A stretch of DNA of 64,000 bases from Trypanosoma brucei (lineage: Eukaryota): NCBI GenBank assembly GCA_000002445.1, contig AL929603.2, forward strand, positions 896,001-960,000. The letters run 5' to 3'. Below the pieces are notes generated by a model. It had not been told where the DNA came from. It did no database searches and saw nothing but the letters and a program-made list of their open reading frames with translations. Below are positions 1 through 46,014 of this stretch, one piece after another; positions within the stretch are counted from its first letter, which is position 1; the number at the start of each line of letters is the position of its first letter. Made by a program: the position numbers and the translations under genes.

Positions 1-425
1 TGAGCCAATGTATATATATATATATTAAACGTATTGATAACTCCGTTCTATGAGATGAAAGGGGTAAAAAAAAAAGAAAAAGAAAAGAAGAGAGGGAAAA
101 AAGAGTGACAGCGTGGCAGTGAATTATACATGCCATTCCGCACACATTTTCATTTTTTGTCACCCCAATGGGGTCTCTCTGTTGTTGCCTCCTTGTTGGA
201 AATGGCCGGCAGGCATTTTAAAGGCGACGGGGTTCATATATGAGTGTTGTTGTTGTTGTTTTTCTTGCTTTTCGCTTTAAAATGAAAATGAATAAAAAGT
301 GAGAGTGAAAGAGAAGGGAACGAAAAGAAGAAAAAAAAAGTAGATCAAACAGACAAACGGACTAAAACGAAAAAGGAAAAGAAAATAAATGAGAGGAAGC
401 GCGGCACTTCCATTTCCATTTCCAT

Positions 426-430
<5 letters not shown>

Positions 431-461
<31 letters not shown>
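431..461. repeat. (TA)n dinucleotide microsatellite, ~15 units
   Basis: Directly visible uninterrupted tatata run. Confidence 0.95.
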
Positions 462-464
<3 letters not shown>

Positions 465-2983: not shown

Positions 2984-3240
2984 ATTTATTTTCATTTTTA
3001 TTCCTCTTTCACCTGGTTCTCCCAACTTGTTGTTCGCGTATGTATTTTTCTCGTTTTCTTTTTTTCCTCTTCTTCTTTTCTTTTCCTTTTGTGAATGTTG
3101 AGTTGAGTTGAGTTTAGTTTAGTTTCTGTTTTACTTTTTGTTTTTTTTTCCTTTTTTATTTAGTTGCTGGCTCCCTGTCTTTGAATCTCTGCGGGGAGCC
3201 TCTGTTGTGGTATATTCTCGTTTCTTTTTTTTTTTTTGTG
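2984..3240 (+). promoter_or_regulatory. Polypyrimidine-rich tract upstream of first gene (candidate trans-splice/polyadenylation signal region)
   Basis: Long C/T-rich run with interspersed AG dinucleotides ending ~400 nt before ATG 3638. Trypanosomatid mRNAs are trans-spliced downstream of such tracts. Confidence 0.4.
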
Positions 3241-3637
3241 TTTGTGTGACTTTGCGGCAGTCCATCAACGAAACTTATAAAAGTGAAAAGGAAACAAAAA
3301 CAAAAGGAAAGGAACGTTGAAAAAAAAACCCCTAAGAGATATTAACTATCAACATTTACGAAGAAAGGATAGGGGGAATAGATATAACGGGAAGCCGCAT
3401 TGATACAAAAATATACACATACACACAAGGGAATAAATATATACTCATAAATATAGAAGGTAAGAGAGGGAAAGAAAAATAAAAAAAGAAAAAAAGAAAA
3501 GGAAAAGGAATAAGGGAATAAGGGAATAAGAGAACAGAAACCAGAGACACATACACACACGAAGAAGGACAAGTAGTCCATTGTCGAGCTGTTTTCTTTT
3601 TTTTGTCTGTTTACCGTAACGAAGTGAGCATTTTTCA

Positions 3638-5788
3638 ATGAGTAGTACTGAAAGCAGCGGTGGAGGGTCGAGTAACGCTTCCCCAAGGTCAGATGGTGAA
3701 GGCTCCACTTCCATTACTAGAGTCAGCAGCAGCAGCAGCAGCGATAGCAGTAAAAGCAGCAGCAAAAGTAGTACCAGCAGCAGCGGTAGCAGTAAAAGCA
3801 GCAGCGAAGATGAGAGAAAGAAAAACCCTGGAAAGAAAAAAGGAGTGTCTGTGCAGTCAAGTGACACGACGAGTTATAATATGCAGTCGTCTTCGTTCAA
3901 AGTTAGCGGATCTACTGAAAGAAAAGACAGCCGTAGCACAACAACGAAGTCCCAACTTGGGTCAGAAAGTAAAGCACAAACTAGTTTAGATTCAGAACTA
4001 GCGACAACAGAAGATAAATCGGGGTGCCGTGAGGAGTGGGCGGAGTTGCGCAACATGGTGTCGGATATCCGCTCGCGAATGAAGCAGTGCCACCTGCCAC
4101 CATTAGATGTGACAGTAATTGAAAAGTTTATACTCCGAGTAGTGGAGGAGAGCGAAGGGGGTAACAGCTCACCCGCAGTCGTCTCCGCTCCTCAGCGCCT
4201 CAGGAATTGCGGGAGGGTTCGCCCACTGCGATATTCTTTGCCTGGAGGGCCATATGTTAGAAACATACCGAGTCGCATTACTGTGACGAAGTCACTTGGG
4301 CGTGTGGTGCAGTTCAGAGCGCGGTCACGTCACGCCGATCATTATAATTCCGTGTACAATCAGTTGCAGGCCGCTGCTGATGTATGTGTGCCGGGACGCT
4401 TAAGCGCAACGGAAGGTGGCGATGGTGGTGGTAGTGCCGTTGGTGCGCATGGAAGTAAAATGCCAGGAGGATCTTCTCACGCTCCGTTGGTTTTCGTTGG
4501 GTACGATAACGGTAACGGTGATAAAGGCGGTGACATTGATATGGACCAGGATATAGACGTGCCAATGTTGTTTACTCCAGGTGTAATGGAGGTTATATGC
4601 CTAGACAACATTTTGCGCAGGCATGAGCAATCCATTCTCATCACGCTGGCTGCCATTAACAAACGGGAATCTGTTATGGAGAGACTTCGTGCCTTCTTGG
4701 TTATTGCTGCTAAAGATTTATCTATACCTTCAGCGGGTGGATATGACGTGGGGACGGATGGTTGTTCCAATAGTGCAGACGGCAATCCTGCATCTGCTAC
4801 TGCATCGTCTCTGGTTCTCCAGCGCTGTGGTGCACCGGTACCCCTTAGGCGTTACATGGATGTTAACGATGCGAGCTGGACTTCATTCCGTGCCAAAGCC
4901 AACAAGAAGAAGTGGGGTGTTCAAAGTTTGAAACAGCGGTGGGGCTCCGATGCACGACTGCGCGGCGGATATCCGGCCGTGTGGCAGCGCTATTATAAGT
5001 TGGGTGTGTTGTGCCTCTTATATCAGCTCCAGCAGGCATCGTTGGAGGTGGTGGAGGGCATTCGTGCATGGCGTGGGACTCTTACCGCCCCGTTTCCATT
5101 TGTTACCAAAGGGCACAATTATTTGCTTGCCATGGCGCAAAGTATGGCTGAACTCGCCAATGACCCCGTCATGCATTTCCTCTTCCCGCCACCTACCCCG
5201 AGGAAGAAGAGGCCTGGGGAACCAAAACCAAAGCCTGGCATCAGTTTCAAATTTAGTGATCCCGACCCGGCGAGTTTTGTATTGCCCATGTGCCTACAAT
5301 ATTACCCACTGCTTTCCAATATGCCGCATTTACCAGTGTACAAACAACCTCCTAATGCTTTGGTTGGGATTAACACTCCATTCGACTTTGGAGGTGCTGA
5401 CACCAAAGGAAATGAGGAGGGTCTGAGAGGAACAATTCCCATGCCATCTTCTTATGTTGGGGCATTGGTGGTGCATCAAGGCCGTATACGCCCTAACAGT
5501 AGCAGTGGCGGCAGCGGTTCCTCTCAGACCCTTTTAGATTTATCGTATGGCCGTCGGTTATTAAAGGCTGAACAGGTTGTACATAGTGAACTGCGTGTAC
5601 AGTTGCGGTTGATAGAATGGGAATTGACGTTGTGTGCGAAGGGGTGTTATCCCCTTCTGCTACGCGATGTGGGCCAAACGGAAGTAGTATATTTACGATC
5701 AACAAAGCGGCAAGAAGAATGGTACTTTCACCTGCGTGACAAACTCATTTGTCTTGAGGAGGGAAGTAGTGCCGTAGTGAGAGGTTAG
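3638..5788 (+). CDS. Hypothetical protein, 716 aa, Ser-rich N-terminus
   Basis: Long ATG-initiated ORF (atg confirmed at 3638). The first ~80 aa are a poly-Ser/Lys low-complexity region (SSSSSSDSSKSSSKSS). No domain recognised by eye. Preceded by a polypyrimidine tract. Confidence 0.6.
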   Translation: MSSTESSGGGSSNASPRSDGEGSTSITRVSSSSSSDSSKSSSKSSTSSSGSSKSSSEDERKKNPGKKKGVSVQSSDTTSYNMQSSSFKVSGSTERKDSRSTTTKSQLGSESKAQTSLDSELATTEDKSGCREEWAELRNMVSDIRSRMKQCHLPPLDVTVIEKFILRVVEESEGGNSSPAVVSAPQRLRNCGRVRPLRYSLPGGPYVRNIPSRITVTKSLGRVVQFRARSRHADHYNSVYNQLQAAADVCVPGRLSATEGGDGGGSAVGAHGSKMPGGSSHAPLVFVGYDNGNGDKGGDIDMDQDIDVPMLFTPGVMEVICLDNILRRHEQSILITLAAINKRESVMERLRAFLVIAAKDLSIPSAGGYDVGTDGCSNSADGNPASATASSLVLQRCGAPVPLRRYMDVNDASWTSFRAKANKKKWGVQSLKQRWGSDARLRGGYPAVWQRYYKLGVLCLLYQLQQASLEVVEGIRAWRGTLTAPFPFVTKGHNYLLAMAQSMAELANDPVMHFLFPPPTPRKKRPGEPKPKPGISFKFSDPDPASFVLPMCLQYYPLLSNMPHLPVYKQPPNALVGINTPFDFGGADTKGNEEGLRGTIPMPSSYVGALVVHQGRIRPNSSSGGSGSSQTLLDLSYGRRLLKAEQVVHSELRVQLRLIEWELTLCAKGCYPLLLRDVGQTEVVYLRSTKRQEEWYFHLRDKLICLEEGSSAVVRG

Positions 5789-12099: not shown

Positions 12100-12966
12100 A
12101 TGCCCATCACTGGACCGTCACATTCGCTTCGGTTTGGACCCGATGATACCGGCAGGGAGGGATGCTCTCAAGGGCCATTATTGGGCACATCAACCGGGCA
12201 GTCCCGTCTCGATGGGAGCAGCGCATCACTGAATGCCATTGCTCGATTTCGTTCTTTGGATAGATCTTTTCCCGTTGCGCAAGCTCTACGACAGAGGGTG
12301 AGGGGACCAGAACCTGCCGCCCCAACATCCGCAATTCAGCGCGCCGCCCCTCTCAGTAATGAAAATTCCGGCATTAACCGATCGGGAATCAACAACACCC
12401 GCGGCTCGTCGGTGGTTTCACCATATGGCATAGGCCCAGCTGCTCTTGTCTACCCAACTCATTCACAAACATCAGCGGTGGAATCCATGTCCCGGTCATC
12501 ATCGTCATCGTCGTCATCGTCATTGCCTCCTCGGCAACTAAATGAGTTGTGGCAGATGGTACGAGATCTCAGGGCAGAAAATGCTGTACTGCAGCAGCGA
12601 GTTGGTATATTGATGGAGGGCGGTGATGAGAAATTTGAGGAGACACTGCAGGGCATTCCACTGCATGGGACTGAGCATGAAAAGAATACCACGGGAGTAT
12701 CTTCAAATAACACCACCACTACCACCAGTGCCGCACGTCCTAGCAGTGAGAAAGCTGGTGCAGTTTCCGATACTACACTTCTCAGCGAAGGAAGTGGAGG
12801 TAAGAATGGACATATGACACCATATCTATTTGCAGAGAGGGAAGCGATGCTAAAGCGAATACGGCGGTTGGAAGCGGCACTAAAGTTGGAGGCGATGGAA
12901 CGTGATGCGCTGGAACTGCGGTTGAGAGCTCAGGAACGTGTACTTGCCCGGTTTGTGCAACAATGA
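12100..12966 (+). CDS. Hypothetical protein, 288 aa, poly-Ser stretch and C-terminal coiled coil
   Basis: ATG confirmed at 12100, and it is the first in-frame ATG after an upstream polypyrimidine tract (11780-11880); a short out-of-frame uORF ATG lies at 11882. Heptad-like regions are LNELWQMVRDLRAENAVLQQRV and RIRRLEAALKLEAMERDALELRLRAQE. Confidence 0.5.
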   Translation: MPITGPSHSLRFGPDDTGREGCSQGPLLGTSTGQSRLDGSSASLNAIARFRSLDRSFPVAQALRQRVRGPEPAAPTSAIQRAAPLSNENSGINRSGINNTRGSSVVSPYGIGPAALVYPTHSQTSAVESMSRSSSSSSSSSLPPRQLNELWQMVRDLRAENAVLQQRVGILMEGGDEKFEETLQGIPLHGTEHEKNTTGVSSNNTTTTTSAARPSSEKAGAVSDTTLLSEGSGGKNGHMTPYLFAEREAMLKRIRRLEAALKLEAMERDALELRLRAQERVLARFVQQ

Positions 12967-13534
12967 GGTCTCATGGTCTTATCATACTGAAGCTGAGTCG
13001 GCGGATATCTGATCATGATTTGTAGGTGTACGAGGGGAAAAATGGAGAAGGAGAGGGGGAAGGGGGAGGGAGGGAGGGGAAAGTATAAAAGACGTGTCCA
13101 TGTGGAAAAAAAAAAAGGAAGGGGCTACTATGTTTTTATTCAAAAGCAGATTTAATAAGCGAATGCACATCTTGTTTTGCACTGTTTTTTTTTTTCGCCC
13201 GCTACTGGTTGTTCCTGGTGGTCTATATATCGAAACATCCGAGGTTCCACGTGGTATGTACGGGGGTACCATTCGCTTTCTCTGCCCACCCCCCACTCCC
13301 CTTGCCCCCGTTCCCTTATCGTGACTTTGCTACTGTTACCGTCAGTGCTATTATTATTTTTATTATTGTTACTTGTTGTTTCTTTCCACTTCACTAACTG
13401 CTAAAAAGGTGTGAGAAGGAGCGTGCCAGGGAACAGTCATCAGGTGCCACCACTTCTCTGGCTCCTATTTTCCCCCCCTCCGCGTTCCTCCGTCTATTTT
13501 ACGGAGTCATATTAGTTGAAAAGGGTTCAGAAAA

Positions 13535-15871
13535 ATGCAAAAAACCCCTCGATTAACGACGCGAAACCTCTTTGACGAGGTATTTGCCACTATTCCTGCA
13601 GATGTAGTTCTGAACACCGGGCCCGCCTCTCTGAGGGAGAAATACGCCCTGATGGAGAGTATTCAGGCTGAAAATGAAGAACAAAATACTGACGGCATTA
13701 CTTTTACCACTGAGGAAGGGGGCGACAACGGCTCTGCGGCAGACGACCCGGGCCCTAACGGTAATTTGACGGAAGAAGGCATTTTAGATTTCAGCGCGGT
13801 AATGCGCCATGCAGCCAAAAGGACAGAGGAGCAGCAGCATGGGGATCAAGAGCAGGGAGGGGAAGTTCACCGTACGATTGATCTGCAGCTCGACGCTGAG
13901 GACGAGGCGGTGCAGGAGGCTATGAAGTACGCTTCGTTGTTTGACGATGTTGAACAGCCGCAACGTCAGCAGTCCGTTGGGGTTGACGCTGATGGTAATG
14001 AAGGTGGGGATGGAATTGTTAATAACACTGGAGATGGCGGGCCAGGCGTTGGGGCTTCCAGTAAAGGTACAGCAGGAGGGATGTTTACTTCCTCGCACGG
14101 CACAAGACACCATACGATGCAACATCAACATCAACATCAACAGACAAGTGGTTCTGCACAAAACGCGCCACGCAGGCAGCTTACGGCGGAAGAGCAGATT
14201 GCGTTAATGTGCCCTGGGGACGGGAGACGTCATACAGGGCGTTGTGTGTTGTTCAGACAGAACAAAAATTTTGGTTTCATTGCGCCGGACATAGGAAACC
14301 CAGATGTGTATTTCACACGGGAAAGCATTGAATTCACTTTCACTCGCCGTGTACTGGAAGCGTTTTTTGGCATGCCGGTGAGCGCTAACGCGCAGCATAG
14401 AGAAGGAGGAAGAGATGACGGAGTGGATAGCCGCCAGTCCCATCGTCGCCAGCGCCGGCATGGAAGTGAGACAGTTTCTAACACGAGTGGCACCAACAAT
14501 TGCAACAACGAGGGAAGTGGAAATGAGGCCGTGCTTGACGGGTTTGCCATTGCAGAAAGGAATATTGAAAGTAGTTGCACGGGTGAAGTTATCAGGGAAG
14601 AGCAACCGGCTTTGCCTGTGGCTGAGACTAATGCGGGTGGGGAAGTCTCGCTAGAGCAACCTCCAGATTCCGATACGGTGACCTCAAGAGGGGATAAGAA
14701 GGGGAATGGAGTTAAGGCGATGACAACAGTTGGGGTTAGTGAAATAGTGCAGACTGAAGAGGTTAAGGAAAAACCCGATGATGGAAGTGCGGGAAGTGGG
14801 GATAATGGTGGAACTGTTGCCAATGCAGAAGCGAACGATATGATCCAGAGGGCTGCTGCACTCCTTACCCCCGAGGCAGCTCGACTGCTTGCGCTCTTCC
14901 TACAAGTTGGTCAACCCGTTTTGTTGGTGGGGGAACCCTTGACATTTACGGTGCGGTGGAACACTTCTGTTAACCGGACAAACAGACGGTTGCGAGCTGA
15001 CAACATCGGTGGTCTTCCAATAAATCATCACGCATTAGCGATTGAGCAATCTTGGTTTAGTTTCGTCTTTAATCCTGGAGCCGAGCGCGGGCGAGACGGA
15101 AGGGGGAATCGGAACCAAGGCGTGCCAACGGAAGGATCGCCATCAGCCTCAGCGGGGGAAAGTGTGCCCGAAGAAAAAAAAGGTGGTGCTGAAGAGAAGG
15201 TATCGGTTCCCGGGAAGGAAGGGGGCCCAGAGACCGGGGATGCGGTGCAGAAGCAAGGGGGAAATGGACTAATGGAAGGAGGGGATAGTGGAGGTGTGAC
15301 GGTAAAGGAAAATGAGGGGGGGAAGAAGGAGAAGCGGAGGGAACGGGACAAAGGTGGGACAGGAAGCGAACGACCGGTTTGTTCTGTTCTTCGGCGCTAT
15401 CGCGGGGTTATTTACGTTTACGATGCGGATGAGCACCGGGGTCACATTCGCCCTGAAGTGAACGGCTCCTCAACGGTACAATTTAGCAGTGATGCTTTCC
15501 TATGGGCGTCATGGATGGAGGCCGGCAGGCGTCGCCCCGCGGAAGGGCTCGTGGTGAATTACTCTCTTGGTGGCACAAATAAGGGTGGTAAACACATTGC
15601 GACATTAATCACTGCCACTGACGACACTGCTCTGAGTGATACAAACTTGGTGTGGGAGACGAAAGTGGCAAATGAGAGAGCACTCAATATCGGCAGGACA
15701 GCTAGTGGTAATGGCAGCAGAGTGGAGAACGGTGATGGGGACCGGCGTAACGGCGGTGCCGGTGGTGCTACGGGCGCTGGTGGAAATCGTGACGAAGGAG
15801 CAAAGGGGCGAAAGCGTGGACGTGATGAAGAGTTACCATTGCTGGAGGAGGACGACTACGGCATCATGTGA
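13535..15871 (+). CDS. Large cold-shock-domain protein (two CSDs) with Gly/Arg-rich C-terminal tail
   Basis: ATG at 13535 follows a polypyrimidine tract (13290-13500). CSD-1 at ~14236-14340 reads GRCVLFRQNKNFGFIAPDIGNPDVYFTRESIEF, matching the cold-shock consensus (G.V.WFN..KGFGFI..D.G.DVFVH.S.I). CSD-2 at ~15400-15510 reads RGVIYVYDADEHRGHIRPEVNGSSTVQFSSDAF. The C-terminus is RGG/GAG-like (NGGAGGATGAGGNRDEGAKGRKRGRDEE). Confidence 0.65.
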   Translation: MQKTPRLTTRNLFDEVFATIPADVVLNTGPASLREKYALMESIQAENEEQNTDGITFTTEEGGDNGSAADDPGPNGNLTEEGILDFSAVMRHAAKRTEEQQHGDQEQGGEVHRTIDLQLDAEDEAVQEAMKYASLFDDVEQPQRQQSVGVDADGNEGGDGIVNNTGDGGPGVGASSKGTAGGMFTSSHGTRHHTMQHQHQHQQTSGSAQNAPRRQLTAEEQIALMCPGDGRRHTGRCVLFRQNKNFGFIAPDIGNPDVYFTRESIEFTFTRRVLEAFFGMPVSANAQHREGGRDDGVDSRQSHRRQRRHGSETVSNTSGTNNCNNEGSGNEAVLDGFAIAERNIESSCTGEVIREEQPALPVAETNAGGEVSLEQPPDSDTVTSRGDKKGNGVKAMTTVGVSEIVQTEEVKEKPDDGSAGSGDNGGTVANAEANDMIQRAAALLTPEAARLLALFLQVGQPVLLVGEPLTFTVRWNTSVNRTNRRLRADNIGGLPINHHALAIEQSWFSFVFNPGAERGRDGRGNRNQGVPTEGSPSASAGESVPEEKKGGAEEKVSVPGKEGGPETGDAVQKQGGNGLMEGGDSGGVTVKENEGGKKEKRRERDKGGTGSERPVCSVLRRYRGVIYVYDADEHRGHIRPEVNGSSTVQFSSDAFLWASWMEAGRRRPAEGLVVNYSLGGTNKGGKHIATLITATDDTALSDTNLVWETKVANERALNIGRTASGNGSRVENGDGDRRNGGAGGATGAGGNRDEGAKGRKRGRDEELPLLEEDDYGIM

Positions 15872-16265: not shown

Positions 16266-16323
16266 GGAGTGATTGTGGAGGGGAGTATTCGCTGTTCGAC
16301 AAACACCGAAACAGCCACGACGA

Positions 16324-19161
16324 ATGACGACAACTCAAGGTGAAGTAATCTCCACCACTTTTTTCAGCAGCAAGGCTCTACTGAAATCCCTGCAAGATGT
16401 GAGCCGCAGCCTCCACATAAGTGGTAATCAATTTCTGCCGCCCAACACCGTTTTGCTTTGTGCCGTCGGTTTAGGCTTTTTGGTTGATGGCGTTTATACT
16501 GCAACCGTGTGGTTTCGAAACCGACGGGCCCTTAATGTGGAACGTGCCGTCAACCATCATAATGGGCCGGTGAAGTTTGTGGTGACCGATGAGTTAGAGG
16601 ACCGCGACGAGGAAGCGAAAGCGTGTTTAGTGCAGCAGTACAGTGACGAGTTATGCAAAGCAATTCTTGGGGCGCCGCGGACGTCACCAGGCTCATGGGC
16701 CAGATCTCCCCCTGCAGACGCCGTCGCCGAGTACGAGACACTTCCTGAGCCGATTCGACTGCTGTGGGAGGACCGTGTGAGGTACACTTTGGACGCGCGT
16801 GAGGTCGTGGGTCTTCTGCGCAGGCGGCTGGAGCCTCACTTGGCCGGGTCGAGGTACGGGCCCAGTGCCGCTCTGATGGCATTATTGTGGCGTTTGCAGC
16901 TCCTGCGCACCGTTCACGAGTCTATAGTGATCGCCGGAGACGTGGGACGGTGCAATGCCGAGTTGACCGAACTTGGAAAGCACACAGGAGCTCTTTATCG
17001 AGAGTTTATTTCTACGTTACACGCACCGGTGCGGGTCCCCTTCGACTCTTGCTGGGAGTGTTTGTCCGCCGAAGACGACCGGTTGCGTGGGCAGGCAAGG
17101 GCGTTACAGCTGCGCAACCTTTGGAGTCTCACCAGATATGTGTTTGCAGGGGGGCTCGATAAGTTATGCACTTACGGTATGGTGGGACTGCTCACTGCTT
17201 TTGCTGCCCGTAGTGCGAGTGCGATTTGTACAATCAGGGTGGACGTGGAGCAACTTCTTCCTAATCTCTTTGGCACCGCTGCTTCCATCAATACTGGGGG
17301 AACCACCGGGGACGGTGCCATCGTCTCATGGACTGCCATGCACATCGTCGTAGCGCGTCTTCTCGTTTCCGAGTGGATGTTGCACATGTTGCGTCTGGGA
17401 ATCACACGGGTAACACAGGACTACACCCACGCCTCTGCTGCATGGCGCAGGGACACTGTGAAGCACCGACTATACGATGCACTCACGCGGACACCCTTAA
17501 GTTACTTCGACAAAACGGAACGTTACGCTGTTGAGGAGATTGTGTACTACGTTAATGACCTTGAGGGGGTTGATGTTTTTGTGCATGACTTCTTTACGCG
17601 GCTGGCACAGTCTGGCATTTCATTGTGTGTGGCATTAAGGGTGTTAGACATGCGGAGTGCGGTGACCGTTATGGGAGCGGTTGCTGGAGCAAGTCTTTTA
17701 AATGCTAGCCTGAGTTTTCTCAAGAAGACCTACTGCGCCCTCTCATATTGTAATGGGATTGGGTTTGAGGCGGTTGACAGCCCGTCGGATGCAGAGGAGG
17801 AGGAGAATCGGAAAGATACAACAGACCACCTGATGTTCTGTGGGATGGACATTATCGAGCACATCCCCGAGCTGCGCCCGTACGGCGCTGACACCAAACT
17901 GATGGAATGGTGGAACAACTACACCGCTCACTACCGACGGCGTTCCTGTGGCCTGCGTCGTGTTTTCCAATTAACCTATAACTCCCGCTACCTTTGGGCG
18001 ATTGACGCTCTTAAACCGGTCGCACGGTGGCTTCTTCCCGCTATTGTCGCTGCGAATGCTGCGGGCACGTGTCAAATACAAGTCTTTCTTCTTGAGGCAA
18101 TACGGGCCTCGCAGGATGTATTGGAGCGTGTGGTGGACGTTCAGCGTGTTGTGGACGTAGTGGGATATAATGCATACAAGGCTGGGGTGCTTGAACGTAT
18201 CCTCGACTCCAAGAATTGGGAGGATGGAGACACCGCGGAGAGGATCTGTGAGCATACGAATAAGGGCAATATCAGTGATACTACTGCACTTACTTGTGAT
18301 ATGAATGGCGGTACGTATAAGAAAAACAAGGAAGATGGAGAGTTGAGGCTTAAAGGAAACGACGTGGAGGTGCTGGCTGTTCGCGCGAACGGTTTGCAGT
18401 TTCGTTATCCAACAGCACCAACTGTTGATGCCTTTCTGAAGCCCGCTTCGTTTCAATTTGAGTTGAGGAATAGGACGACAGGTCTTGGGCGGCTTGTGTG
18501 CATCACGGGAGTTAGTGGCTGCGGCAAAACAACACTCCTGCGCCTTCTATTGGGGCTTTACGCGCCGGAGAACCCCAACACTCTCCTTCTTGAGTTTCGG
18601 TTGCGACGGCATCATGTGTCGGAATCCAACGGAGGGGGAACGGGTAATAGCGGTAATAAAGAGCAGTGGGCTCCAGTTGAGCTTATACCGCGAGCTCAGC
18701 TTCGGTCTACTTTTTTCAGCTACGTGCCACAGGCCCCAACTATATTTCCTGGCGCGACCATAGCCCAGAATGTCTCACTTCGGAACCGCGTTTCAATTAC
18801 GGATACGTTGGTCCTTGAGCGGGTGCGTGTCTGCACGGAGGCTGCGGGTTGCGGTCATTTCATTAAGCGCTTGCCAAATGGTATCATGACGCCACTGTGC
18901 GTGAATGTTGGTTGGGCGACGCCCGATGCCGTGCGACTGAGTTGTGGTCAGGGGCAGAGACTAATGTTAGCTCGTGCTCTATTCCACTGTTCCAGTGTAC
19001 TTTTGTTGGATGAACCCACAGCAGGGTTAGACAGTGAGACGAAGAAAGCAGTCATGTCACAGTGGCGTGAGTTGCTGTCTTCTGGACTCGTGGGTGGTAT
19101 CATATGCGTGTCGCATGACGCCGATGTGTTGCAAATGGCGGATGAGACCGTAACATTGTGA
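16324..19161 (+). CDS. ABC-type ATPase-like protein: hydrophobic N-terminal region plus single C-terminal nucleotide-binding domain
   Basis: The ORF-track start 16273 is a TTG codon; the first in-frame ATG is 16324 (MTTTQGEV). Walker A is GVSGCGKTT (~18505-18540), the ABC signature is LSCGQGQR (~18938-18961, a variant of LSGGQ), Walker B is VLLLDEPTAGLD (~18995-19030) and the H-loop is ICVSHD. Several hydrophobic segments N-terminal to the NBD suggest a half-transporter-like layout, but the N-terminal region (~700 aa) is longer than a typical transmembrane domain. Confidence 0.7.
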   Translation: MTTTQGEVISTTFFSSKALLKSLQDVSRSLHISGNQFLPPNTVLLCAVGLGFLVDGVYTATVWFRNRRALNVERAVNHHNGPVKFVVTDELEDRDEEAKACLVQQYSDELCKAILGAPRTSPGSWARSPPADAVAEYETLPEPIRLLWEDRVRYTLDAREVVGLLRRRLEPHLAGSRYGPSAALMALLWRLQLLRTVHESIVIAGDVGRCNAELTELGKHTGALYREFISTLHAPVRVPFDSCWECLSAEDDRLRGQARALQLRNLWSLTRYVFAGGLDKLCTYGMVGLLTAFAARSASAICTIRVDVEQLLPNLFGTAASINTGGTTGDGAIVSWTAMHIVVARLLVSEWMLHMLRLGITRVTQDYTHASAAWRRDTVKHRLYDALTRTPLSYFDKTERYAVEEIVYYVNDLEGVDVFVHDFFTRLAQSGISLCVALRVLDMRSAVTVMGAVAGASLLNASLSFLKKTYCALSYCNGIGFEAVDSPSDAEEEENRKDTTDHLMFCGMDIIEHIPELRPYGADTKLMEWWNNYTAHYRRRSCGLRRVFQLTYNSRYLWAIDALKPVARWLLPAIVAANAAGTCQIQVFLLEAIRASQDVLERVVDVQRVVDVVGYNAYKAGVLERILDSKNWEDGDTAERICEHTNKGNISDTTALTCDMNGGTYKKNKEDGELRLKGNDVEVLAVRANGLQFRYPTAPTVDAFLKPASFQFELRNRTTGLGRLVCITGVSGCGKTTLLRLLLGLYAPENPNTLLLEFRLRRHHVSESNGGGTGNSGNKEQWAPVELIPRAQLRSTFFSYVPQAPTIFPGATIAQNVSLRNRVSITDTLVLERVRVCTEAAGCGHFIKRLPNGIMTPLCVNVGWATPDAVRLSCGQGQRLMLARALFHCSSVLLLDEPTAGLDSETKKAVMSQWRELLSSGLVGGIICVSHDADVLQMADETVTL

Positions 19162-20154
19162 GCGACTCGCTGCTGCTGAAATTGCATTACTCGCAAAACT
19201 AATTGATGCCAATGTGTGGCAGTACATATGTGTGGAGGTAGTTGGGGTATGATGGCGGAAATTTAATACATGAAGCTGACAGCGGTATCGACATTCGTGG
19301 CGTGCTGTTATTTCCAGTTTTGTCATCTCCTTTTGTCTCGTTTTATTTTTATTTTCATGCACATGATCCATTTTCCCTCCGTAGTGTTATGCGCTCTCTT
19401 TGCGTGTCATAATGCCATTTGGTGCATGCACGAATTGTGCGGGTTGGCGTTAGAAGTGATGGGATCAACGTTGGTGGGTATGGGGGGGGGAGGTAAGGGA
19501 GTAACGAAGGCTTTTATGTTTCGTCGCCGTTCACATTAATATTTATCAACAGTTCTACGTGTGGAGCGTGAAGGAAATTTCATTTGGTTCCCTTCAACTT
19601 TTTCCAGCTTCCAGTATCTCCGCTTGTTCGTTGTTTGATTGTTTGTTTTTCCTTTTCATTTTCGTCCCTAAGATTGTTTGTGACATTTTAGTTTGTCTGA
19701 ATACCGCAGTTAGTGAACTTTTTGTCGTCGTATCGTCGTATTATTATTATTATCATTATTATTATTTTTTGGTCACTGGTCTGACTTTTTTAAAAAAGGA
19801 AAAGAAACAGTGGGGGAAGGAAATAGGCATAAATCTGTGTACGAGTGTTTTTCTTTTTTCGTATGTGTGTGTGTGTGTGTGTTCCCCCTTTCCGATTTTG
19901 TGTTAAACCCTTCGAGCTGTTTGGACGTGTCAGACAAACGTTCCGCTCGCTTATTCCATCGGTCTTCGTGATCCCATTTTCCTTTTTTTTTTTTGGGGGG
20001 GGACCAGTACGCGTGTGCGTTTACGCTAAATCACATTGGTTTTCCTTGGGTTTGATCTTCTTTTCCTTCTTCCCTTCTGTCCCATTTTTTTCTTTTTGGT
20101 TTATCGTATTGTACTTATGTGTTTGTGTGTGCCTACTACAAACGTATGCGTGCG

Positions 20155-20175
20155 TCTCTCTCTCTCTCTCTCTCT
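20155..20175. repeat. (TC)n microsatellite
   Basis: tctctctctctctctctctct, visible directly inside a pyrimidine-rich intergenic region. Confidence 0.9.
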
Positions 20176-20179
20176 GTGG

Positions 20180-20330
20180 GTTGTGTGTTTCCGTGTTCAA
20201 CATGTACTTCTTTTTCACCCCATTATTCGTGCATCTGCGTGTCAATTCTGTATTTTACCTTTCCTTCTTTCACTTTCTTACTTCTTTTCTCTCTCCATCT
20301 CCCTGCCCATTTTCATGTATTCATGCGCGT
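20180..20330 (+). promoter_or_regulatory. Polypyrimidine-rich region upstream of K+ channel gene
   Basis: Extended C/T-rich sequence (ttcaccccattattcgtgcatctgcgtgtcaattctgtattttacctttccttctttcactttcttacttcttttctctctccatctccctgcccattttc). Confidence 0.4.
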
Positions 20331-20552
20331 GGTATAAAATGTACACATGTGCATATATGCACAAACAATGACAATACGAAAACAAATGATGTAGTGGGAC
20401 TGGTACCCACATCATCCTCCCCTCGAACTTTTTCAAAAAACCAGAGGTTGAAACGGTTGTGTGGGTTCAGCGCGCGTGAGTGGGAAGGTAAACTGTAAGT
20501 AATTTTTCAAATCGAGGAGGCGGAAGTGAAGGAGGTGGGGAGGGAAGTGTGC

Positions 20553-23500
20553 ATGTACACGCTGTACCCCCGCTTTGATGCTCAACCCTCCGATCCAGCG
20601 CTTTTGGGGGAGGCTGCAGGAAATGAGTTACTGAAGGAAGTGACAGATCTGACGTCGAAGGGACACCGCATGGACGTTGGTGAATATATTCCCTTTAGGC
20701 GTTCACTGCGGTTCAACACACCTCAAAGCCGCCGCCCGGCCCGGCGCAGACGAGGCCTGCAGGACACGGCACCCGAGTACGAATCTGAGGGAAGCAGTGG
20801 CTTCTGTAGTGATGTATTGGCTACTTTTGCCAGCCAGTTGCGCTGCCTCTTCCCCTGCTGTGGTCCCAGGAGGGTGGAGGATGAGAAGCTTTGGTTTGGT
20901 TTCGCCATGACACGAGGAGTAAGAAATATATACTTGCGTGTGGTGCGGCAGCACCCAATCGTTTCCATGATTGTCTGGTCCGTCCTCTTCTTGTGCGAGA
21001 CAACGATGGTGGCCATTTATTTGTGGCAAGTGTCAGGTGTTGCAGAGGGCGCCACGTGGAATTCTTTCACTGAGGAGGAATTAGGCTTGTGCTTCTGCAT
21101 AAGCAGTGCCCTGTCCATTTTACTACTATCCCAACTGATCTTTGCGTACTCCTTTACGCCTTTTACCATCGTTGTGGTGCTCGTTACAACTATCTATCAG
21201 ATTGTCCTCCTTTTTATGGCCTTGGTTTTCGGCCTGACTTGGGCGAGTCGGATGTACGTTCCGATGTTTCTGCGGTGTTGGCCCATGCGGCAGTATTTTC
21301 TCTTTCTGCTGGACTCCGTGGCCATGTTGTCATCCAGTAGTGATAGGCTCGATGTTGTTCGTTTGGCAGCACCATCGCTTTCGTTGTTCTTAACCATGGT
21401 ATTCACAACTGCGTGCATCTTTCAAATTCAGCAAATTTTTTCCGGCACGATGATTGGCACAATAGATTCGCTGTACTTTGTCATGGCGACCGTATCAACG
21501 ACTGGGTTCGGTGACGTTCTTCCGCAGGGCAACATTGGCCGTATGTTGACGATTGGAATTATCTTTGTCTTTCTTGCGAAGATGCCTTCGTGGATTGTGG
21601 TTGTGGTAGGGATGGTGAAGATGCTGCGTGACTTTCCGAAGTACGGCGGTCCACCGCATCACTTCATCGTGTATGGTCACGTGAGCCAGGAGGACGCTGT
21701 GTCCATACTTGACGAGGTCTTCAAACTATACCCAACGAGATCTGTGTGCTTTTGCAATGCAAGTTTTCCGCGGGATGTTCTATCATTGGGTGGACACCCA
21801 AATTATAGGATGCGCAGTACATTTATGGTAGTGAAGGTACTCAACAAGGCTTCGCTGCATCGCATGCGGGTGAGTGAGGCGGATGCGGTTATCATTTCCC
21901 CAACTAGCGATGGGACGGCGAAGGCGCGGGACGATGACGTGTTTTTGTCCTCCGTTACGTTCCAGCGGCATGCACCTTTTGTTCAGCAGTACCTGCAACT
22001 CCGATTCGGTACCCACATCAAACTGCTGGAGGAGCGCGAAACGATGGTGGATCAGAATATGAGGAGCATTATGGCGAGTGCTCTTATTCTTCCCGGTATT
22101 GTTCCATTTTTGGTGAACCTTGTTCGTACTGCATCGTCAGGTGGAAGCTCTCCGGCTTCTCTGTGGTCTGAGGAGGGAATGGATAACTGGAAGGACCTGT
22201 ACGAATACAGTCGGCGCGCTACATTTCGCACATTTACGGTTCCACCTTATTTTGAGCGGCGGCCTCTGCGGGACGCAGTATACCTGTTGAAGACCTTTAA
22301 TGTATTAGTTGTTGGCGTGGAGGAAGGGAGGAATAGGATGATGATACTCGACCTTGATTATAAACTTGCGTTGAGTGACACTATCCTTGTACTACATGAA
22401 AGTGGTAGCGACAGTGTGGACCTGGCGCTAAGAGCGCTTGACCCAACAGAGGGCTCCCGTGGGAGCATGACGGGGTGTGATAGGAGTGAGCAATGGGAGG
22501 CGCGGATGGCTTCGCCCGCGGCTGATGCATCCGCACAAAGCGGCTCCCGTGGTGACGTGCCGGACGCTGAGGTGGAGGAGTTGGGCGCTGTTGGAATCGA
22601 CAGCGCGAGCCTCATTTACCCGTTCAACCCAAGCTTTGAGGTGCCTACTGGTAGTAATGAGGAGGTGCCATGTCTCGGTACAGAGTGTGACAATTCGCCT
22701 GGAAAGACTCCACCAGTGGCGATGCAGGGACATAAAGGGAAAGCAAATGTGCCATTGCCGAACAGTGTAGCTCTCTCCAAAGGTACCATCACCAGCGTGT
22801 TGGATATGCAGGTCGAAAGACTGCGGAGGAGGCTGTTGGGAGAGGACTTCGTGGTTAAATGTTTCGGTGATGTTTCACTCTCACGCCTTCCTCTAGGCGG
22901 TTCGTTGGCGGTGCTGACGCATTTGCTGAACTGGCGCCAGGCGGTTTGCACAAGGTCTGAGCCTGTGGAATCTTCGGTTGAACGAATAGAGCGGCAGATC
23001 AATGACATACTGAGACATGTAAGTAACGAGTACCAGTGCGGGAGGAGCGGGAAAGCCCCTGGGGAAAACTTTCTTTTTATTGACCATGTGTCCTCGTTCA
23101 AACAACCATTGCTAGAGTCCATGTATGACCATTACCTTAATGACCATGCTTCACGGTTTGAACTCGTACAAATGATGCGTTGCATCCGGGGCATTCACTC
23201 CCGCTCCCGCGTTACACTTCTCAGTTGGCAGAGTCTGAGCGATTCTTTCCTCCGGCAGTGGGACTCTTCATTTGAGTTTCCCCTACGACATATTCGGGGC
23301 TCGAGTACAATGGAGTCTCACTTAAACTATGCCATCAAGGAAAGTGGAGGGGCGGCTAACCTGCGTGGTATTCTCATATACTGCTCACAGCTTAGTCACT
23401 GGGACTTTAAGGACGTCCCGCTTGTTGCTGTGGAGAACAACATACGCGCTATCCTTGATTGCCATGCCACTTCGGAGAAGCAGCAACAGGGGGTGGGCGG

Positions 23501-24056
23501 TGGGTCGTCTCGCGGTGCAGAGGTGGAGCAGCAGGTTATGGTGGAGCTAAAATCCTTTAAGTCCTGCATTTCAGTTACACCTCACCACGCGGACACGGAA
23601 TGGCGACAGCGTGGTGAGGTCCATTTCCAGTACTCCCTGGCGTTCATGATGGGTCGTTGCTTCTCTGCCAACATGCTGCAAACAATTTTTATCCACGCTC
23701 ACCGGAATCGTTGTATTATGAAATTCCTTAACAACGTGTTGTGCCTGCATCGGCAGGGAAGTGTGTTTGATACAGGGGGGTGGAACAGCGGCGACAAGTC
23801 GGACACCACTCTTTTTAAGGTATGTGGGAACCAGCTTTTGCATTTTCAAACGTTCGGCGATTTGTTTGTGTTCCTCCTGAAACACCGTTCGTGGGTGGCC
23901 ATCGGTGTTTTCCGCCGATTCCCGACGTCTGAGGGGCTTCCAGGCGTTCCCCGCTATTTCATTACGAACCCCCCAATGAAAATGCCGTTAAGGGTTGATG
24001 ATGTGGTGTACGCCCTTTCTGGAGTCACGGGAGCACATAACAGAATGGGTTGCTAA
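20553..24056 (+). CDS. TbK1: Potassium channel subunit, Slo/MthK-like with RCK domains (Ca2+-activated-type K+ channel)
   Basis: The track start 20526 is GTG; the first ATG is 20553. Several TM helices are followed by a pore loop with the canonical K+ selectivity filter TVSTTGFGDV (~21496-21516). An S6-like helix (LTIGIIFVFLAKMPSWIVVVVGMV) comes next, then an RCK/Rossmann start HHFIVYGHVSQEDAVSILDEV, which resembles the HIVVCGH motif of BK/MthK channels, and a long cytoplasmic tail. The symbol TbK1 is assigned from memory: my recollection is that one of the two T. brucei K+ channel subunits lies on chr 1 a short distance upstream of the CFB1 array. This is unverified. Confidence 0.8.
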   Translation: MYTLYPRFDAQPSDPALLGEAAGNELLKEVTDLTSKGHRMDVGEYIPFRRSLRFNTPQSRRPARRRRGLQDTAPEYESEGSSGFCSDVLATFASQLRCLFPCCGPRRVEDEKLWFGFAMTRGVRNIYLRVVRQHPIVSMIVWSVLFLCETTMVAIYLWQVSGVAEGATWNSFTEEELGLCFCISSALSILLLSQLIFAYSFTPFTIVVVLVTTIYQIVLLFMALVFGLTWASRMYVPMFLRCWPMRQYFLFLLDSVAMLSSSSDRLDVVRLAAPSLSLFLTMVFTTACIFQIQQIFSGTMIGTIDSLYFVMATVSTTGFGDVLPQGNIGRMLTIGIIFVFLAKMPSWIVVVVGMVKMLRDFPKYGGPPHHFIVYGHVSQEDAVSILDEVFKLYPTRSVCFCNASFPRDVLSLGGHPNYRMRSTFMVVKVLNKASLHRMRVSEADAVIISPTSDGTAKARDDDVFLSSVTFQRHAPFVQQYLQLRFGTHIKLLEERETMVDQNMRSIMASALILPGIVPFLVNLVRTASSGGSSPASLWSEEGMDNWKDLYEYSRRATFRTFTVPPYFERRPLRDAVYLLKTFNVLVVGVEEGRNRMMILDLDYKLALSDTILVLHESGSDSVDLALRALDPTEGSRGSMTGCDRSEQWEARMASPAADASAQSGSRGDVPDAEVEELGAVGIDSASLIYPFNPSFEVPTGSNEEVPCLGTECDNSPGKTPPVAMQGHKGKANVPLPNSVALSKGTITSVLDMQVERLRRRLLGEDFVVKCFGDVSLSRLPLGGSLAVLTHLLNWRQAVCTRSEPVESSVERIERQINDILRHVSNEYQCGRSGKAPGENFLFIDHVSSFKQPLLESMYDHYLNDHASRFELVQMMRCIRGIHSRSRVTLLSWQSLSDSFLRQWDSSFEFPLRHIRGSSTMESHLNYAIKESGGAANLRGILIYCSQLSHWDFKDVPLVAVENNIRAILDCHATSEKQQQGVGGGSSRGAEVEQQVMVELKSFKSCISVTPHHADTEWRQRGEVHFQYSLAFMMGRCFSANMLQTIFIHAHRNRCIMKFLNNVLCLHRQGSVFDTGGWNSGDKSDTTLFKVCGNQLLHFQTFGDLFVFLLKHRSWVAIGVFRRFPTSEGLPGVPRYFITNPPMKMPLRVDDVVYALSGVTGAHNRMGC

Positions 24057-27478: not shown

Positions 27479-27538
27479 GTGCAAATCCCTAACTAACACT
27501 CTGACACGAATTATTTAAGGATCTGAGTGTGGCAAACC

Positions 27539-43242: not shown

Positions 43243-43393
43243 TTATTGATGCGTGTGATAGTGTTTTCCGCTATCGGGACCAGAAGACCATAAGCAAGGT
43301 AACATCTGAGGCCAACCCAATTGCCATCATTTTCTTTGTCGTGAATTGTGAAGCAAACCTTTACCAAGCGTTATTTGAATAGCGGTGTACACG

Positions 43394-45835: not shown

Positions 45836-46014
45836 TCGTTTTATATCATTTTTCATTTCGTTTCATTTTATATCATTTTTCATTTCGTTTCATTTTATAT
45901 CATTTTTCATTTCGTTTCATTTACTATTTTATTTTACTTTCGTTTCATTTACTATTTTATTTTACTTTTGTTTCTATTTTTGTTTCCGCTGCTCACACAC
46001 ACACACACACACAC
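45836..46014. repeat. Array-spacer minisatellites: 27-nt repeat x3, 25-nt repeat x2, then (CA)~10 (long spacer class)
   Basis: ATTTTATATCATTTTTCATTTCGTTTC x3, then ATTTACTATTTTATTTTACTTT(C/T)GTTTC x2, then cacacacacacacacacacac at 45994-46014. The short-class spacers (after copies 2 and 5) carry one 27-mer copy and (CA)~5, at ~48966-49076 and ~58285-58395. Confidence 0.85.

What the first reader, a model, noticed from the sequence alone, without database searches (positions are those of the whole stretch)
13535..15871. Unusually large protein carrying two cold-shock domains and a Gly/Arg-rich tail
The two CSDs (GRCVLFRQNKNFGFIAPDIGNPDVYFTRESI and GVIYVYDADEHRGHIRPEVNGSSTVQFSSDAF) are separated by ~380 aa of acidic and Gly-rich low complexity, inside a 778-aa protein. 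Kinetoplastid CSD proteins known to me, such as RBP16, are small. A large two-CSD protein is a candidate RNA chaperone or mRNP scaffold. It lies in the same transcription unit as the CFB array, though adjacency has no functional meaning in polycistronic units.
Basis: partly seen in the sequence, partly recalled or inferred. Interest (0 to 1): 0.5.

Follow-up and report, generated by a model that had tools for sequence, protein, structure and literature searches.

The report
Trypanosome protein with split cold-shock domain
This is the uncharacterised Trypanosoma brucei gene Tb927.1.4410: a mostly disordered protein conserved across trypanosomatids, with one cold-shock domain that looks able to bind RNA but is split by a ~190-residue insert, and a second degenerate cold-shock-like barrel that has lost the RNA-binding residues. 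It is a modest refinement of a known protein type, not a new kind of system.

Summary
The 778-aa ORF at 13535-15871 (+) is real. It is 100% identical to T. brucei TREU927 Tb927.1.4410 (Q4GYD7, 83.1 kDa), which is detected by mass spectrometry, carries the GO term cytoplasm, and is not discussed in any paper searched. Orthologues occur across Trypanosomatidae.

The "two CSDs" claim holds at fold level, with corrections:
- CSD1 is below threshold in Pfam (18.4 vs 27 bits, profile 2-28/66) because it is split. Beta1-beta3 lie at aa 231-262 and beta4-beta5 at aa 459-493. All 17 members examined have a 100-226-aa insert, bordered by conserved helices. Splicing the halves adds 7-8 bits against bacterial CSPs (0-2 of 200 shuffles reach this). 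The AF2 model gives a single OB barrel.
- CSD1 keeps RNP1 (K, F, F) and one RNP2 aromatic in 23/23 sequences.
- The tail is Gly-rich but acidic, with no RGG motif.
- Conserved N- and C-terminal linear motifs suggest partner docking.

The most likely role is an RNA-binding adaptor or scaffold. That role is inferred and has not been shown.

The parts
13535..15871 (+). Complete ORF of Tb927.1.4410 (778 aa plus stop; 83.1 kDa, pI 5.07)
   Evidence: ORF listing. 100% identity to XP_001219134.1 / Q4GYD7. ID, molecular weight and ORF length of 2337 nt match the published tables.
13265..13432 (+). Upstream polypyrimidine tracts followed by AG dinucleotides. This is the likely trans-splice acceptor region for this gene.
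   Evidence: Read directly from the sequence. The role is inferred from general knowledge of trypanosome mRNA processing.
13547..13654 (+). Conserved N-terminal linear motif, aa 5-40 (RLTSxNLFDxVFxTxPADxxxDxGPxxLxE)
   Evidence: Conserved block with mean conservation 0.76 in 23 sequences. It is also present in most deep-branching members. Function unknown.
13886..13939 (+). Conserved acidic helix, aa 118-135 (LDAEDEAVQEAxKYAxL)
   Evidence: Conserved block. Predicted helix H124-140 at low confidence.
14225..14320 (+). CSD1 N-terminal half, beta1-beta3, aa 231-262. Contains RNP1 (K244-N-F246-G-F248-I) and a partial RNP2 (V258-Y259-F260).
   Evidence: Pfam CSD 18.4 bits, profile positions 2-28. 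Half-only family profile against PDB CSPs reaches E down to 7e-9. RNP residue table. Strands in the AF2 models.
14336..14401 (+). Two conserved helices directly after beta3, aa 268-289 (FTRRVLEAFF...). This is the start of the insert.
   Evidence: H268-278 and H282-289 in model md51056bc3cb6, with block pLDDT up to 79. Conserved family-wide.
14402..14809 (+). Variable, acidic, Gly/Ser/Thr-rich disordered core of the insert, aa 290-425
   Evidence: pLDDT about 31-39. Not alignable between genera, and total insert length ranges from 100 to 226 aa. Composition: pI 4.6, 1% aromatic residues.
14810..14908 (+). Two conserved helices before beta4, aa 426-458 (AAALLTPEAARLLxLFLQVG). This is the end of the insert.
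   Evidence: H426-443 and H446-458 with pLDDT about 75. Conserved block.
14909..15013 (+). CSD1 C-terminal half, beta4-beta5, aa 459-493 (GEPLTFTVRWN...RRLRADNIGG)
15026..15070 (+). Conserved helix after beta5, aa 498-512 (ALxxEQxWFxxxF)
   Evidence: H498-509. E504, W507, F508 and F512 are invariant in 23 sequences.
15071..15385 (+). Gly-rich, highly charged disordered linker, aa 513-617. It is much longer in T. brucei and T. congolense than in other species.
   Evidence: 24% Gly, 0% aromatic residues. Largely absent from the T. cruzi, T. rangeli and T. conorhini orthologues. pLDDT below 35.
15386..15625 (+). CSD2, aa 618-697. A degenerate (non-canonical) cold-shock/S1-type OB barrel.
15635..15805 (+). 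Gly-rich but net acidic tail, aa 701-757. Not an RGG box.
   Evidence: Composition and motif count.
15806..15823 (+). Basic cluster GRKRGR, aa 758-763 (NLS-like). Conserved in Trypanosoma and Leishmaniinae but absent in the deepest members.
   Evidence: Alignments. The NLS role is inferred only; the GO annotation is cytoplasm.
15824..15868 (+). C-terminal acidic-hydrophobic motif, aa 764-778: [DE][DE]x[LMIV]LL[LFY]x[DE]DDYxx[MILV]-COOH. Probable partner-docking peptide.
   Evidence: Present at the extreme C-terminus of essentially all 23+17 family members. The motif class was not determined.

Best explanation
Tb927.1.4410 encodes a cytoplasmic, about 60% disordered, acidic protein that is conserved across trypanosomatids and built around two cold-shock-type OB barrels that probably arose by internal duplication. 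CSD1 is a split domain. Beta1-beta3 (aa 231-262) and beta4-beta5 (aa 459-493) assemble into one barrel. They are interrupted at the beta3-beta4 position, where classical OB folds carry a helix, by an insert made of four conserved helices around a variable disordered loop. CSD1 keeps an intact RNP1 motif and one RNP2 aromatic residue, so it most likely binds single-stranded RNA with modest affinity and low specificity. CSD2 (aa 618-697) has the fold but has replaced the stacking and basic residues. It most likely acts as a structural or protein-contact module, like the non-canonical CSDs of Unr/CSDE1. The strictly conserved N-terminal motif and C-terminal acidic-hydrophobic peptide most likely recruit partner proteins. 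The whole protein would then work as an RNA-binding adaptor or scaffold in cytoplasmic mRNPs. SHOWN: the gene and its expression, the family, the split-domain signal, the fold predictions and the residue pattern. INFERRED: RNA binding, the scaffolding role and motif function.
For: Identity and expression.

Family breadth.

Split CSD1:
- Pfam matches only profile positions 2-28.
- All 17 members examined carry a 100-226-aa insert.
- The spliced family profile hits solved CSPs at E 5e-8, with alignments running across the junction. Compared with the half-1-only profile, it gains about 8-10 bits for CspA and 3cam.
- The column-shuffle control reaches the real score in 0/200, 0/200, 2/200 and 1/200 trials, and a reversed second half gives no gain.
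- AF2 places beta4-beta5 at 462-492.

RNA-binding competence of CSD1: K16->K in 22/23, F18->F in 23/23, F20->F in 23/23, F31->Y/F in 23/23.

CSD2 degeneracy: K16->E/D in 23/23, F18->R in 23/23; in T. brucei the F20, F31, H33 and F34 equivalents are H, Q, S and S.

ncCSD precedent: PMC7383231.

Localisation: GO term cytoplasm.

Weak functional hint: fragments retained at 10x blasticidin in one tethering experiment, 150 reads against 8 in the no-boxB control.
Against: I found no direct evidence of RNA binding. The mRNA-bound-proteome paper is not held, and the gene is absent from the stored text of four other supplements.

Neither domain reaches the Pfam gathering score in any of 23 members.

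CSD1 has lost the W11, H33 and F34 equivalents.

The whole protein is acidic (pI 5.07), which does not favour RNA binding.

The tethering signal did not replicate: experiment A gave 71 against 70 reads, and the 20x selection gave 2.

Toh et al. 2023 count only four CSD proteins in T. brucei and do not include this one.
Confidence: 0.5

Rival explanations
1. It is a protein-interaction adaptor that does not bind nucleic acid. Both OB barrels serve as protein-binding modules. The conserved C-terminal peptide matches loose SUMO-interaction (aliphatic core plus acidic run), ATG8-interaction (acidic-Y-x-x-hydrophobic) and YxxPhi/acidic-dileucine patterns, and it couples the protein to a SUMO, autophagy or trafficking pathway.
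For: The terminal motifs are the most strictly conserved linear features. CSD2 has lost its RNA-binding residues and CSD1 has lost three of about seven. The protein is acidic overall. No RNA-binding record was found. OB folds are widely used for protein binding (general knowledge).
Against: RNP1 K-x-F-G-F-I and the F31-equivalent aromatic residue are invariant or nearly so across 23-40 sequences spanning the trypanosomatids. That is hard to explain without selection for the canonical ligand surface. The motif-class matches are pattern resemblances recalled from memory and were not tested. The patterns are short and degenerate.
Confidence: 0.22
2. One reading: a tandem-CSD RNA chaperone in which both CSDs bind and melt RNA, assisted by a Gly/Arg-rich tail, as in RBP16 or Y-box proteins.
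For: Two CSD-type folds are present, and there are Gly-rich segments.
Against: CSD2 lacks the RNP1 and RNP2 residues and shows a charge reversal at K16. The tail has no RGG motif, one RG dipeptide and pI 4.9. The two barrels are separated by a ~105-aa flexible linker in T. brucei.
Confidence: 0.12
3. It is a single-stranded-DNA-binding or nuclear protein. The OB barrels bind ssDNA, and the GRKRGR cluster acts as a nuclear localisation signal.
Against: The GO annotation is cytoplasm. The basic cluster is absent from the deepest family members. The sequence-level relatives are CSPs, CRHSP-24 and Unr, which are RNA-binding CSDs. The gene is absent from the stored DNA-damage phosphoproteome tables, although those files may be truncated, so this point is weak.
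Confidence: 0.07

Closest known systems
Unr/CSDE1 (Drosophila and human): alternating canonical CSDs and non-canonical CSDs (Hollmann et al. 2020, PMC7383231)
   Different: There are two domains here, not nine. They are joined by a long flexible Gly-rich linker, not held in fixed contact. There is no extended beta1-beta2 loop in CSD2. The canonical domain here is itself interrupted by a 100-226-aa insert. There is no detectable orthology, and the family is restricted to trypanosomatids and possibly other kinetoplastids.
T. brucei CSD1 (Tb927.8.7820) and CSD2 (Tb927.4.4520), RNA-binding triggers of metacyclogenesis (Toh et al. 2023, PMC10270622)
   Same: They are from the same organism. They are CSD proteins with long intrinsically disordered, acidic flanks and an insertion inside the CSD barrel. 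They are cytoplasmic.
   Different: Their insert is 40-41 aa and follows beta2. Here it is about 190 aa, follows beta3 and contains conserved helices. They have one CSD, whereas this protein has a second, degenerate one. They are about 500 aa against 778 aa. Their RNA binding and the requirement for their RNP residues were shown experimentally; nothing comparable exists here. This protein is not in that paper's list of four T. brucei CSD proteins.
Bacterial cold-shock proteins (CspA/CspB) and human CRHSP-24/CARHSP1
   Same: These are the best sequence-profile relatives of CSD1 (E 5e-8 to 7e-9). CSD1 shares K-G-F-G-F-I-x-P-D-x-G-x-x-D-[VI]-[FY] and the beta4 G-x-x-V-x-F motif.
   Different: In those proteins the domain is contiguous and about 70 aa. 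W11, H33 and F34 are present there and lost here.
RBP16 (Tb927.11.7900), mitochondrial Y-box-type CSD + RGG protein
   Same: It is a kinetoplastid CSD protein with a Gly-containing C-terminal region.
   Different: RBP16 is small, mitochondrial and has an RGG domain (own knowledge; named). This protein has no RGG motif, is annotated as cytoplasmic and is five to six times larger.

Membership tests
Cold-shock domain (Pfam PF00313) | Scores at or above the Pfam gathering threshold (27 bits) | tested here: not met
   CSD1 scores 18.4 bits in T. brucei. 16 of 23 family members hit at E<=0.01 (best 7e-5), none at the gathering score. In-silico spliced CSD1 scores 21.5-25.9 bits. CSD2 gives no hit at E<=10 in four species.
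Cold-shock domain (Pfam PF00313) | Significant profile similarity to solved CSD proteins | tested here: met
   This applies to CSD1 only. The family profile scores E 5.3e-8 (3cam) and 5.8e-7 (CspA), and 25 CSP entries fall at E<0.01. For CSD2 all six top hits are CSPs but at E 0.27-1.8. CSD2 is linked through hhalign to CSD1 at 84% probability, E 7e-6.
Cold-shock domain (Pfam PF00313) | Five-stranded antiparallel beta-barrel of the CSD/S1 OB type | tested here: met
Cold-shock domain (Pfam PF00313) | RNP1 motif [KN]-G-[FY]-G-F-I | tested here: met
   CSD1 reads K244-N-F246-G-F248-I, with K in 22/23, F in 23/23 and F in 23/23. CSD2 does not meet this feature: E/D, R and Y/V/H/Q occupy the K16, F18 and F20 positions.
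Cold-shock domain (Pfam PF00313) | RNP2 motif V-F-V-H-F | tested here: inconclusive
   CSD1 reads V258-Y259-F260-T261-R262. The F31 equivalent is aromatic in 23/23, but H33 and F34 are lost. CSD2 reads V-Q-F-S-S in T. brucei.
Cold-shock domain (Pfam PF00313) | Contiguous domain of about 65-70 residues | tested here: not met
   CSD1 is interrupted between beta3 and beta4 by 100-226 residues in all 17 members examined. CSD2 is contiguous in Trypanosoma, but deep-branching members have long beta2-beta3 insertions.
Cold-shock domain (Pfam PF00313) | Binds single-stranded RNA or DNA | not testable with these tools
   This needs EMSA, NMR or CLIP. The mRNA-bound-proteome paper is not held.
Unr-type non-canonical CSD (pseudo-RBD), applied to CSD2 | Has the CSD fold but lacks the Y/FGF and FFHF RNA-binding motifs and is missed by PF00313 | tested here: met
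   The definition is taken from PMC7383231.
Unr-type non-canonical CSD (pseudo-RBD), applied to CSD2 | Extended beta1-beta2 loop | tested here: not met
   Beta1 spans 622-630 and beta2 spans 635-640, leaving a four-residue turn.
Unr-type non-canonical CSD (pseudo-RBD), applied to CSD2 | Packs against a neighbouring canonical CSD to fix its orientation | tested here: inconclusive
   A ~105-aa low-confidence linker separates it from CSD1.
Unr-type non-canonical CSD (pseudo-RBD), applied to CSD2 | Does not bind RNA in isolation | not testable with these tools
   This needs NMR titration or EMSA.
RBP16 / Y-box type (CSD + RGG) | Arg/Gly-rich (RGG) auxiliary RNA-binding region | tested here: not met
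   There is no RGG motif anywhere in the protein. The tail has one RG dipeptide, 21% Gly and pI 4.9.
T. brucei CSD1/CSD2 type (Toh et al. 2023) | Single central CSD with a ~40-aa acidic loop after beta2, flanked by disordered N- and C-terminal domains | tested here: not met
   Disordered flanks are present. However, the insert follows beta3, is about 190 aa and is bordered by helices, and a second barrel is present.

The most novel reading that the evidence does not exclude
The family could be a kinetoplastid-specific regulated RNA adaptor. In this reading the conserved helical module inserted at beta3-beta4 of CSD1 gates or extends the RNA-binding face. The invariant C-terminal acidic-hydrophobic peptide (SIM-like or ATG8-interaction-like) would couple bound mRNAs to a SUMO, autophagy or other effector pathway. 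That would be a mode of post-transcriptional control with no counterpart among described CSD proteins.
Probability: 0.08. Interest if true: 0.65.

Novelty: new variant of a known kind. Interest (0 to 1): 0.35.

Why it matters
Trypanosomes control gene expression almost entirely after transcription, so the inventory of RNA-binding proteins is central to their biology. The most recent published inventory lists four CSD proteins in T. brucei (PMC10270622), two of which drive development of the infective stage. Tb927.1.4410 is a fifth candidate, conserved across trypanosomatids. It escapes domain searches because its canonical CSD is split and its second CSD is degenerate.

The finding gives concrete construct boundaries and point mutants (F246, F248, Y259; deletion of the last 15 residues) for testing. 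It also adds an example outside animals of the pairing of a canonical CSD with a pseudo-CSD described for Unr.

It does not reveal a new mechanism, and it does not open a long-standing question.

Tried and rejected
(1) I first suspected the gene was Tb927.1.4400, a TbPLK-dependent phosphoprotein at the bilobe. This was rejected. The S40 phosphopeptide of Tb927.1.4400 (Q4GYD8) maps to the upstream 288-aa ORF. Q4GYD7 at 83.123 kDa is listed as Tb927.1.4410, and the ORF length of 2337 nt matches.

(2) Pfam on in-silico spliced CSD1 extended the alignment to profile positions 52-60 but gained only about 1 bit. The family-profile comparison and the shuffle control were needed to see the signal.

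(3) With the shallow, Trypanosoma-only profiles, hhalign of CSD2 against CSD1 gave 1.1% probability, and the PDB search gave unrelated hits. Only the 17-member family alignment gave 84%.

(4) Homologous-protein run with the 17-sequence alignment returned only the original nine proteins, because low-complexity words filled the candidate list.

(5) NCBIfam gave only far-sub-threshold CspA, CspG and CspE hits to the same half-domain.

(6) The bacterial-type promoter and terminator scan was near shuffle expectation and is irrelevant to a trypanosome.

(7) Literature: no main-text mention of Tb927.1.4410 or Q4GYD7. The gene is not in the stored supplement text of the EIF4E1, TrypTag, heat-shock or DNA-damage studies. 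Lueong 2016 is not held.

(8) Neighbouring genes carry no functional signal. They are an ABC transporter, a BK-type K+ channel, Ctf4/Mcl1, a VTT-domain protein and a RING finger.

(9) A transmembrane segment is excluded: the maximum Kyte-Doolittle 19-residue window is 1.56.
Full report
**Observation.** The window holds an ATG-initiated ORF at 13535..15871 on the + strand, encoding 778 aa. The region upstream carries long polypyrimidine tracts followed by AG dinucleotides about 100-130 nt before the ATG. This is the usual trypanosome trans-splice acceptor layout (interpretation from general knowledge). The N-terminus aligns from residue 1 with the orthologues, so the start codon is sound.

**Identity.** The protein is 100% identical to T. 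brucei brucei TREU927 XP_001219134.1 / UniProt Q4GYD7. NCBI calls it "hypothetical protein, conserved" and UniProt calls it "CSD domain-containing protein". The downstream ABC-transporter gene is Tb927.1.4420 = XP_001219135.1. I first considered that the gene might be Tb927.1.4400, a TbPLK-regulated bilobe protein. A published proteome table settles the question. It lists Tb927.1.4410 as Q4GYD7 at 83.123 kDa, with 8 peptides and the GO term cytoplasm. It lists Tb927.1.4400 as Q4GYD8, whose S40 phosphopeptide maps to the upstream 288-aa ORF at 12100..12966. The computed mass is 83.12 kDa, and the ORF length in the tethering-screen tables is 2337 nt; both match. No paper in the searchable library mentions Tb927.1.4410 or Q4GYD7 in its main text. 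The most recent inventory says T. brucei has four CSD proteins (CSD1, CSD2, CSD3 and RBP16), and this one is not among them.

**Family.** A word-indexed search found only Trypanosoma orthologues. An exhaustive profile search found about 20 proteins at E<1e-30. These include Novymonas, Lotmaria and Angomonas, plus unnamed assemblies. A further search returned Leishmania (several species), Leptomonas and Porcisia. Six blocks are conserved across all of them and make up about 39% of the T. brucei residues:
- an N-terminal motif (aa 5-40);
- an acidic helix (aa 118-135);
- aa 215-283;
- aa 436-516;
- aa 621-709;
- the C-terminal 20 residues.

Everything between these blocks is variable, acidic or Gly-rich, and predicted to be disordered.

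**CSD1 is a split domain.** Pfam PF00313 hits aa 234-260 at 18.4 bits (gathering score 27) and covers only profile positions 2-28 of 66. The block GEPLTFTVRWN...RRLRADNIGG, about 190 aa downstream, resembles CSD beta4-beta5. Every one of the 17 diverse members examined has a 100-226-aa insert at this point. Three tests followed.
1. Splicing the halves in silico extends the Pfam alignment to positions 52-60 but adds only about 1 bit.
2. A family profile of the spliced domain hits solved CSPs at E down to 5e-8, with alignments crossing the junction. The half-1-only profile scores lower: 3cam 26.2 against 35.9 bits, CspA 24.3 against 32.5, and 8tg0 27.8 against 34.4.
3. A column-shuffle control of the second half reaches the real score in 0/200 trials (CspA), 0/200 (B. 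subtilis CspB), 2/200 (CspE) and 1/200 (CspD). A reversed second half gives no gain. YB-1 is not significant, at 34/200. The CspA scores reproduce those of the PDB search exactly, which validates the CspA sequence.

**CSD2 is a cryptic, degenerate CSD.** No Pfam hit appears for aa 615-700 in four species, even at E<=10. The shallow profile found nothing relevant. With the 17-member profile, the six best PDB hits are all cold-shock proteins, aligned in register over beta1-beta2, but they are not significant (E 0.27-1.8). hhalign to the CSD1 profile gives 84% probability and E 7e-6 over beta1-beta3. In the full-length AF2 model this is the only confident region, with pLDDT 70-78 and five strands.
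- Foldseek's top hits are CspA (TM 0.66), CRHSP-24, RNase E S1 and YB-1, at probability 1.0.

**RNA-binding residues.** I mapped the canonical CspA positions onto the 23-sequence alignment.
- CSD1 keeps K16 (K in 22/23), F18 (F in 23/23), F20 (F in 23/23) and F31 (Y/F in 23/23). It has lost W11 (now L/M), H33 (now T/I/V) and F34 (variable).
- CSD2 has E/D at K16 (23/23) and R at F18 (23/23). At F20 it has Y, V, H or Q, with H637 in T. brucei. At F31, H33 and F34 the T. brucei residues are Q, S and S.

This is the pattern described for the non-canonical CSDs of Unr. Those domains have the CSD fold, lack the Y/FGF and FFHF motifs, are missed by PF00313, do not bind RNA alone, and act as scaffolds (PMC7383231).

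**Tail and termini.** The C-terminal 78 residues are 21% Gly but net acidic (pI 4.9), with no RGG motif and one RG dipeptide. This is not an RBP16-like RGG box. A basic GRKRGR cluster (aa 758-763) is conserved in Trypanosoma and Leishmaniinae but not in the deepest members. The terminal peptide [DE][DE]x[LMIV]LL[LFY]x[DE]DDYxx[MILV]-COOH is present essentially everywhere. It loosely fits SUMO-interaction, ATG8-interaction and YxxPhi/dileucine patterns. These are resemblances from memory and were not tested. No transmembrane segment is present.

**Context.** Apart from one 247-aa antisense ORF inside the Ctf4/Mcl1 gene, all ORFs of 200 aa or more from 3638 to 60334 are on the + strand, and the CFB array starts about 27.5 kb downstream. 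This is consistent with one polycistronic unit. The neighbours are functionally unrelated, as expected for kinetoplastids.

**Functional data.** The protein's abundance is essentially flat across the cell cycle, with a maximum log2 change of 0.456. In the shotgun tethering screen, fragments were retained at 10x blasticidin in experiment B: 150 reads, where most genes fall to 0-5, and only 8 reads in the no-boxB control. They were not retained in experiment A (71 against 70) or at 20x (2). I treat this as an equivocal hint and not as a hit.

**Interpretation.** The structural conclusions are well supported for a computational study: a split but RNP1-intact CSD, a degenerate CSD, disordered spacers, and conserved terminal motifs. 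I rate these at about 0.8. The functional conclusion is inference from residue conservation and analogy: an RNA-binding adaptor or scaffold in cytoplasmic mRNPs, in which CSD1 contacts ssRNA, CSD2 acts as a pseudo-RBD, and the termini recruit partners. I rate the combined statement at 0.5. The main rival is a purely protein-binding adaptor (0.22). An ssDNA-binding or nuclear role is unlikely given the cytoplasmic annotation (0.07).

**Comparison and novelty.** CSD proteins with disordered flanks and intra-domain loops are already known in T. brucei: CSD1 and CSD2 are about 500 aa with a 40-41-aa loop after beta2. Pairing of a canonical CSD with a pseudo-CSD is known from Unr. Three things differ here. 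The insert is larger, lies at a different position (beta3-beta4) and is partly helical. The family-specific terminal motifs are conserved. The protein has escaped the published CSD inventory. I classify it as a new variant of a known kind, of moderate-to-low general interest (0.35), though useful to people who work on kinetoplastid RNA-binding proteins.

Noticed in passing
window 12100..12966 (+): The 288-aa ORF immediately upstream is Tb927.1.4400 (Q4GYD8). It was reported as a TbPLK-dependent phosphoprotein localising to the bilobe/hook complex. Its S40 phosphosite changes across the cell cycle, and the published phosphopeptide matches this ORF exactly. It has no Pfam domain.
   Followed up: partly
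window 16273..19161 (+): ABC-transporter gene Tb927.1.4420 (Pfam ABC_tran, E 1.4e-16). The mechanical ORF is 962 aa from a TTG codon, whereas the literature lists 945 aa. The annotated start is therefore an internal ATG.
   Followed up: partly
window 20526..24056 (+) and 19845..20498 (+): BK/Slowpoke-type K+ channel (Ion_trans_2, BK_channel_a, Slowpoke_C), corresponding by ORF length to Tb927.1.4450. A separate 217-aa ORF lies just upstream; a 636-nt gene, Tb927.1.4440, is listed at that position in the tethering table.
   Followed up: no
window 27527..31993 (+), with a 247-aa antisense ORF at 30829..31572 (-): Ctf4/Mcl1-type replisome protein (Mcl1_mid E 3.6e-56, Ctf4_C). The antisense ORF inside it is most likely a chance ORF.
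   Followed up: no
window 43385..60334 (+): Five equally sized 530-aa ORFs spaced about 3.1 kb apart, plus a 479-aa ORF. GC skew turns negative across this stretch (from about 44 kb).
   Followed up: no
window 1..4000, 34001..36000 and 62001..64000: Three markedly AT-rich stretches (GC 0.27-0.35, against about 0.5 elsewhere) that contain no ORFs of 200 aa or more. Their nature was not examined.
   Followed up: no
window 13040..13085 (+): A 45-nt pure-purine G/A tract (ggagaaggagagggggaagggggagggagggaggggaaag) lies just downstream of the Tb927.1.4400 stop codon, and a poly(A)/poly(T)-rich segment follows.
   Followed up: no
Family members P0023-P0027 (unnamed assemblies), CSD2 region: In the deepest-branching relatives CSD2 also carries a long insertion (about 25-50 aa) in the beta2-beta3 loop. 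Both barrels of this family therefore tolerate large loop insertions. The basic RKR cluster before the C-terminal motif is missing in these members.
   Followed up: partly
window 15071..15385 (+), aa 513-617: The Gly-rich charged linker between CSD1 and CSD2 is about 70-80 residues longer in T. brucei and T. congolense than in T. cruzi, T. rangeli, T. conorhini and T. vivax. This is a lineage-specific expansion of low-complexity sequence.
   Followed up: no
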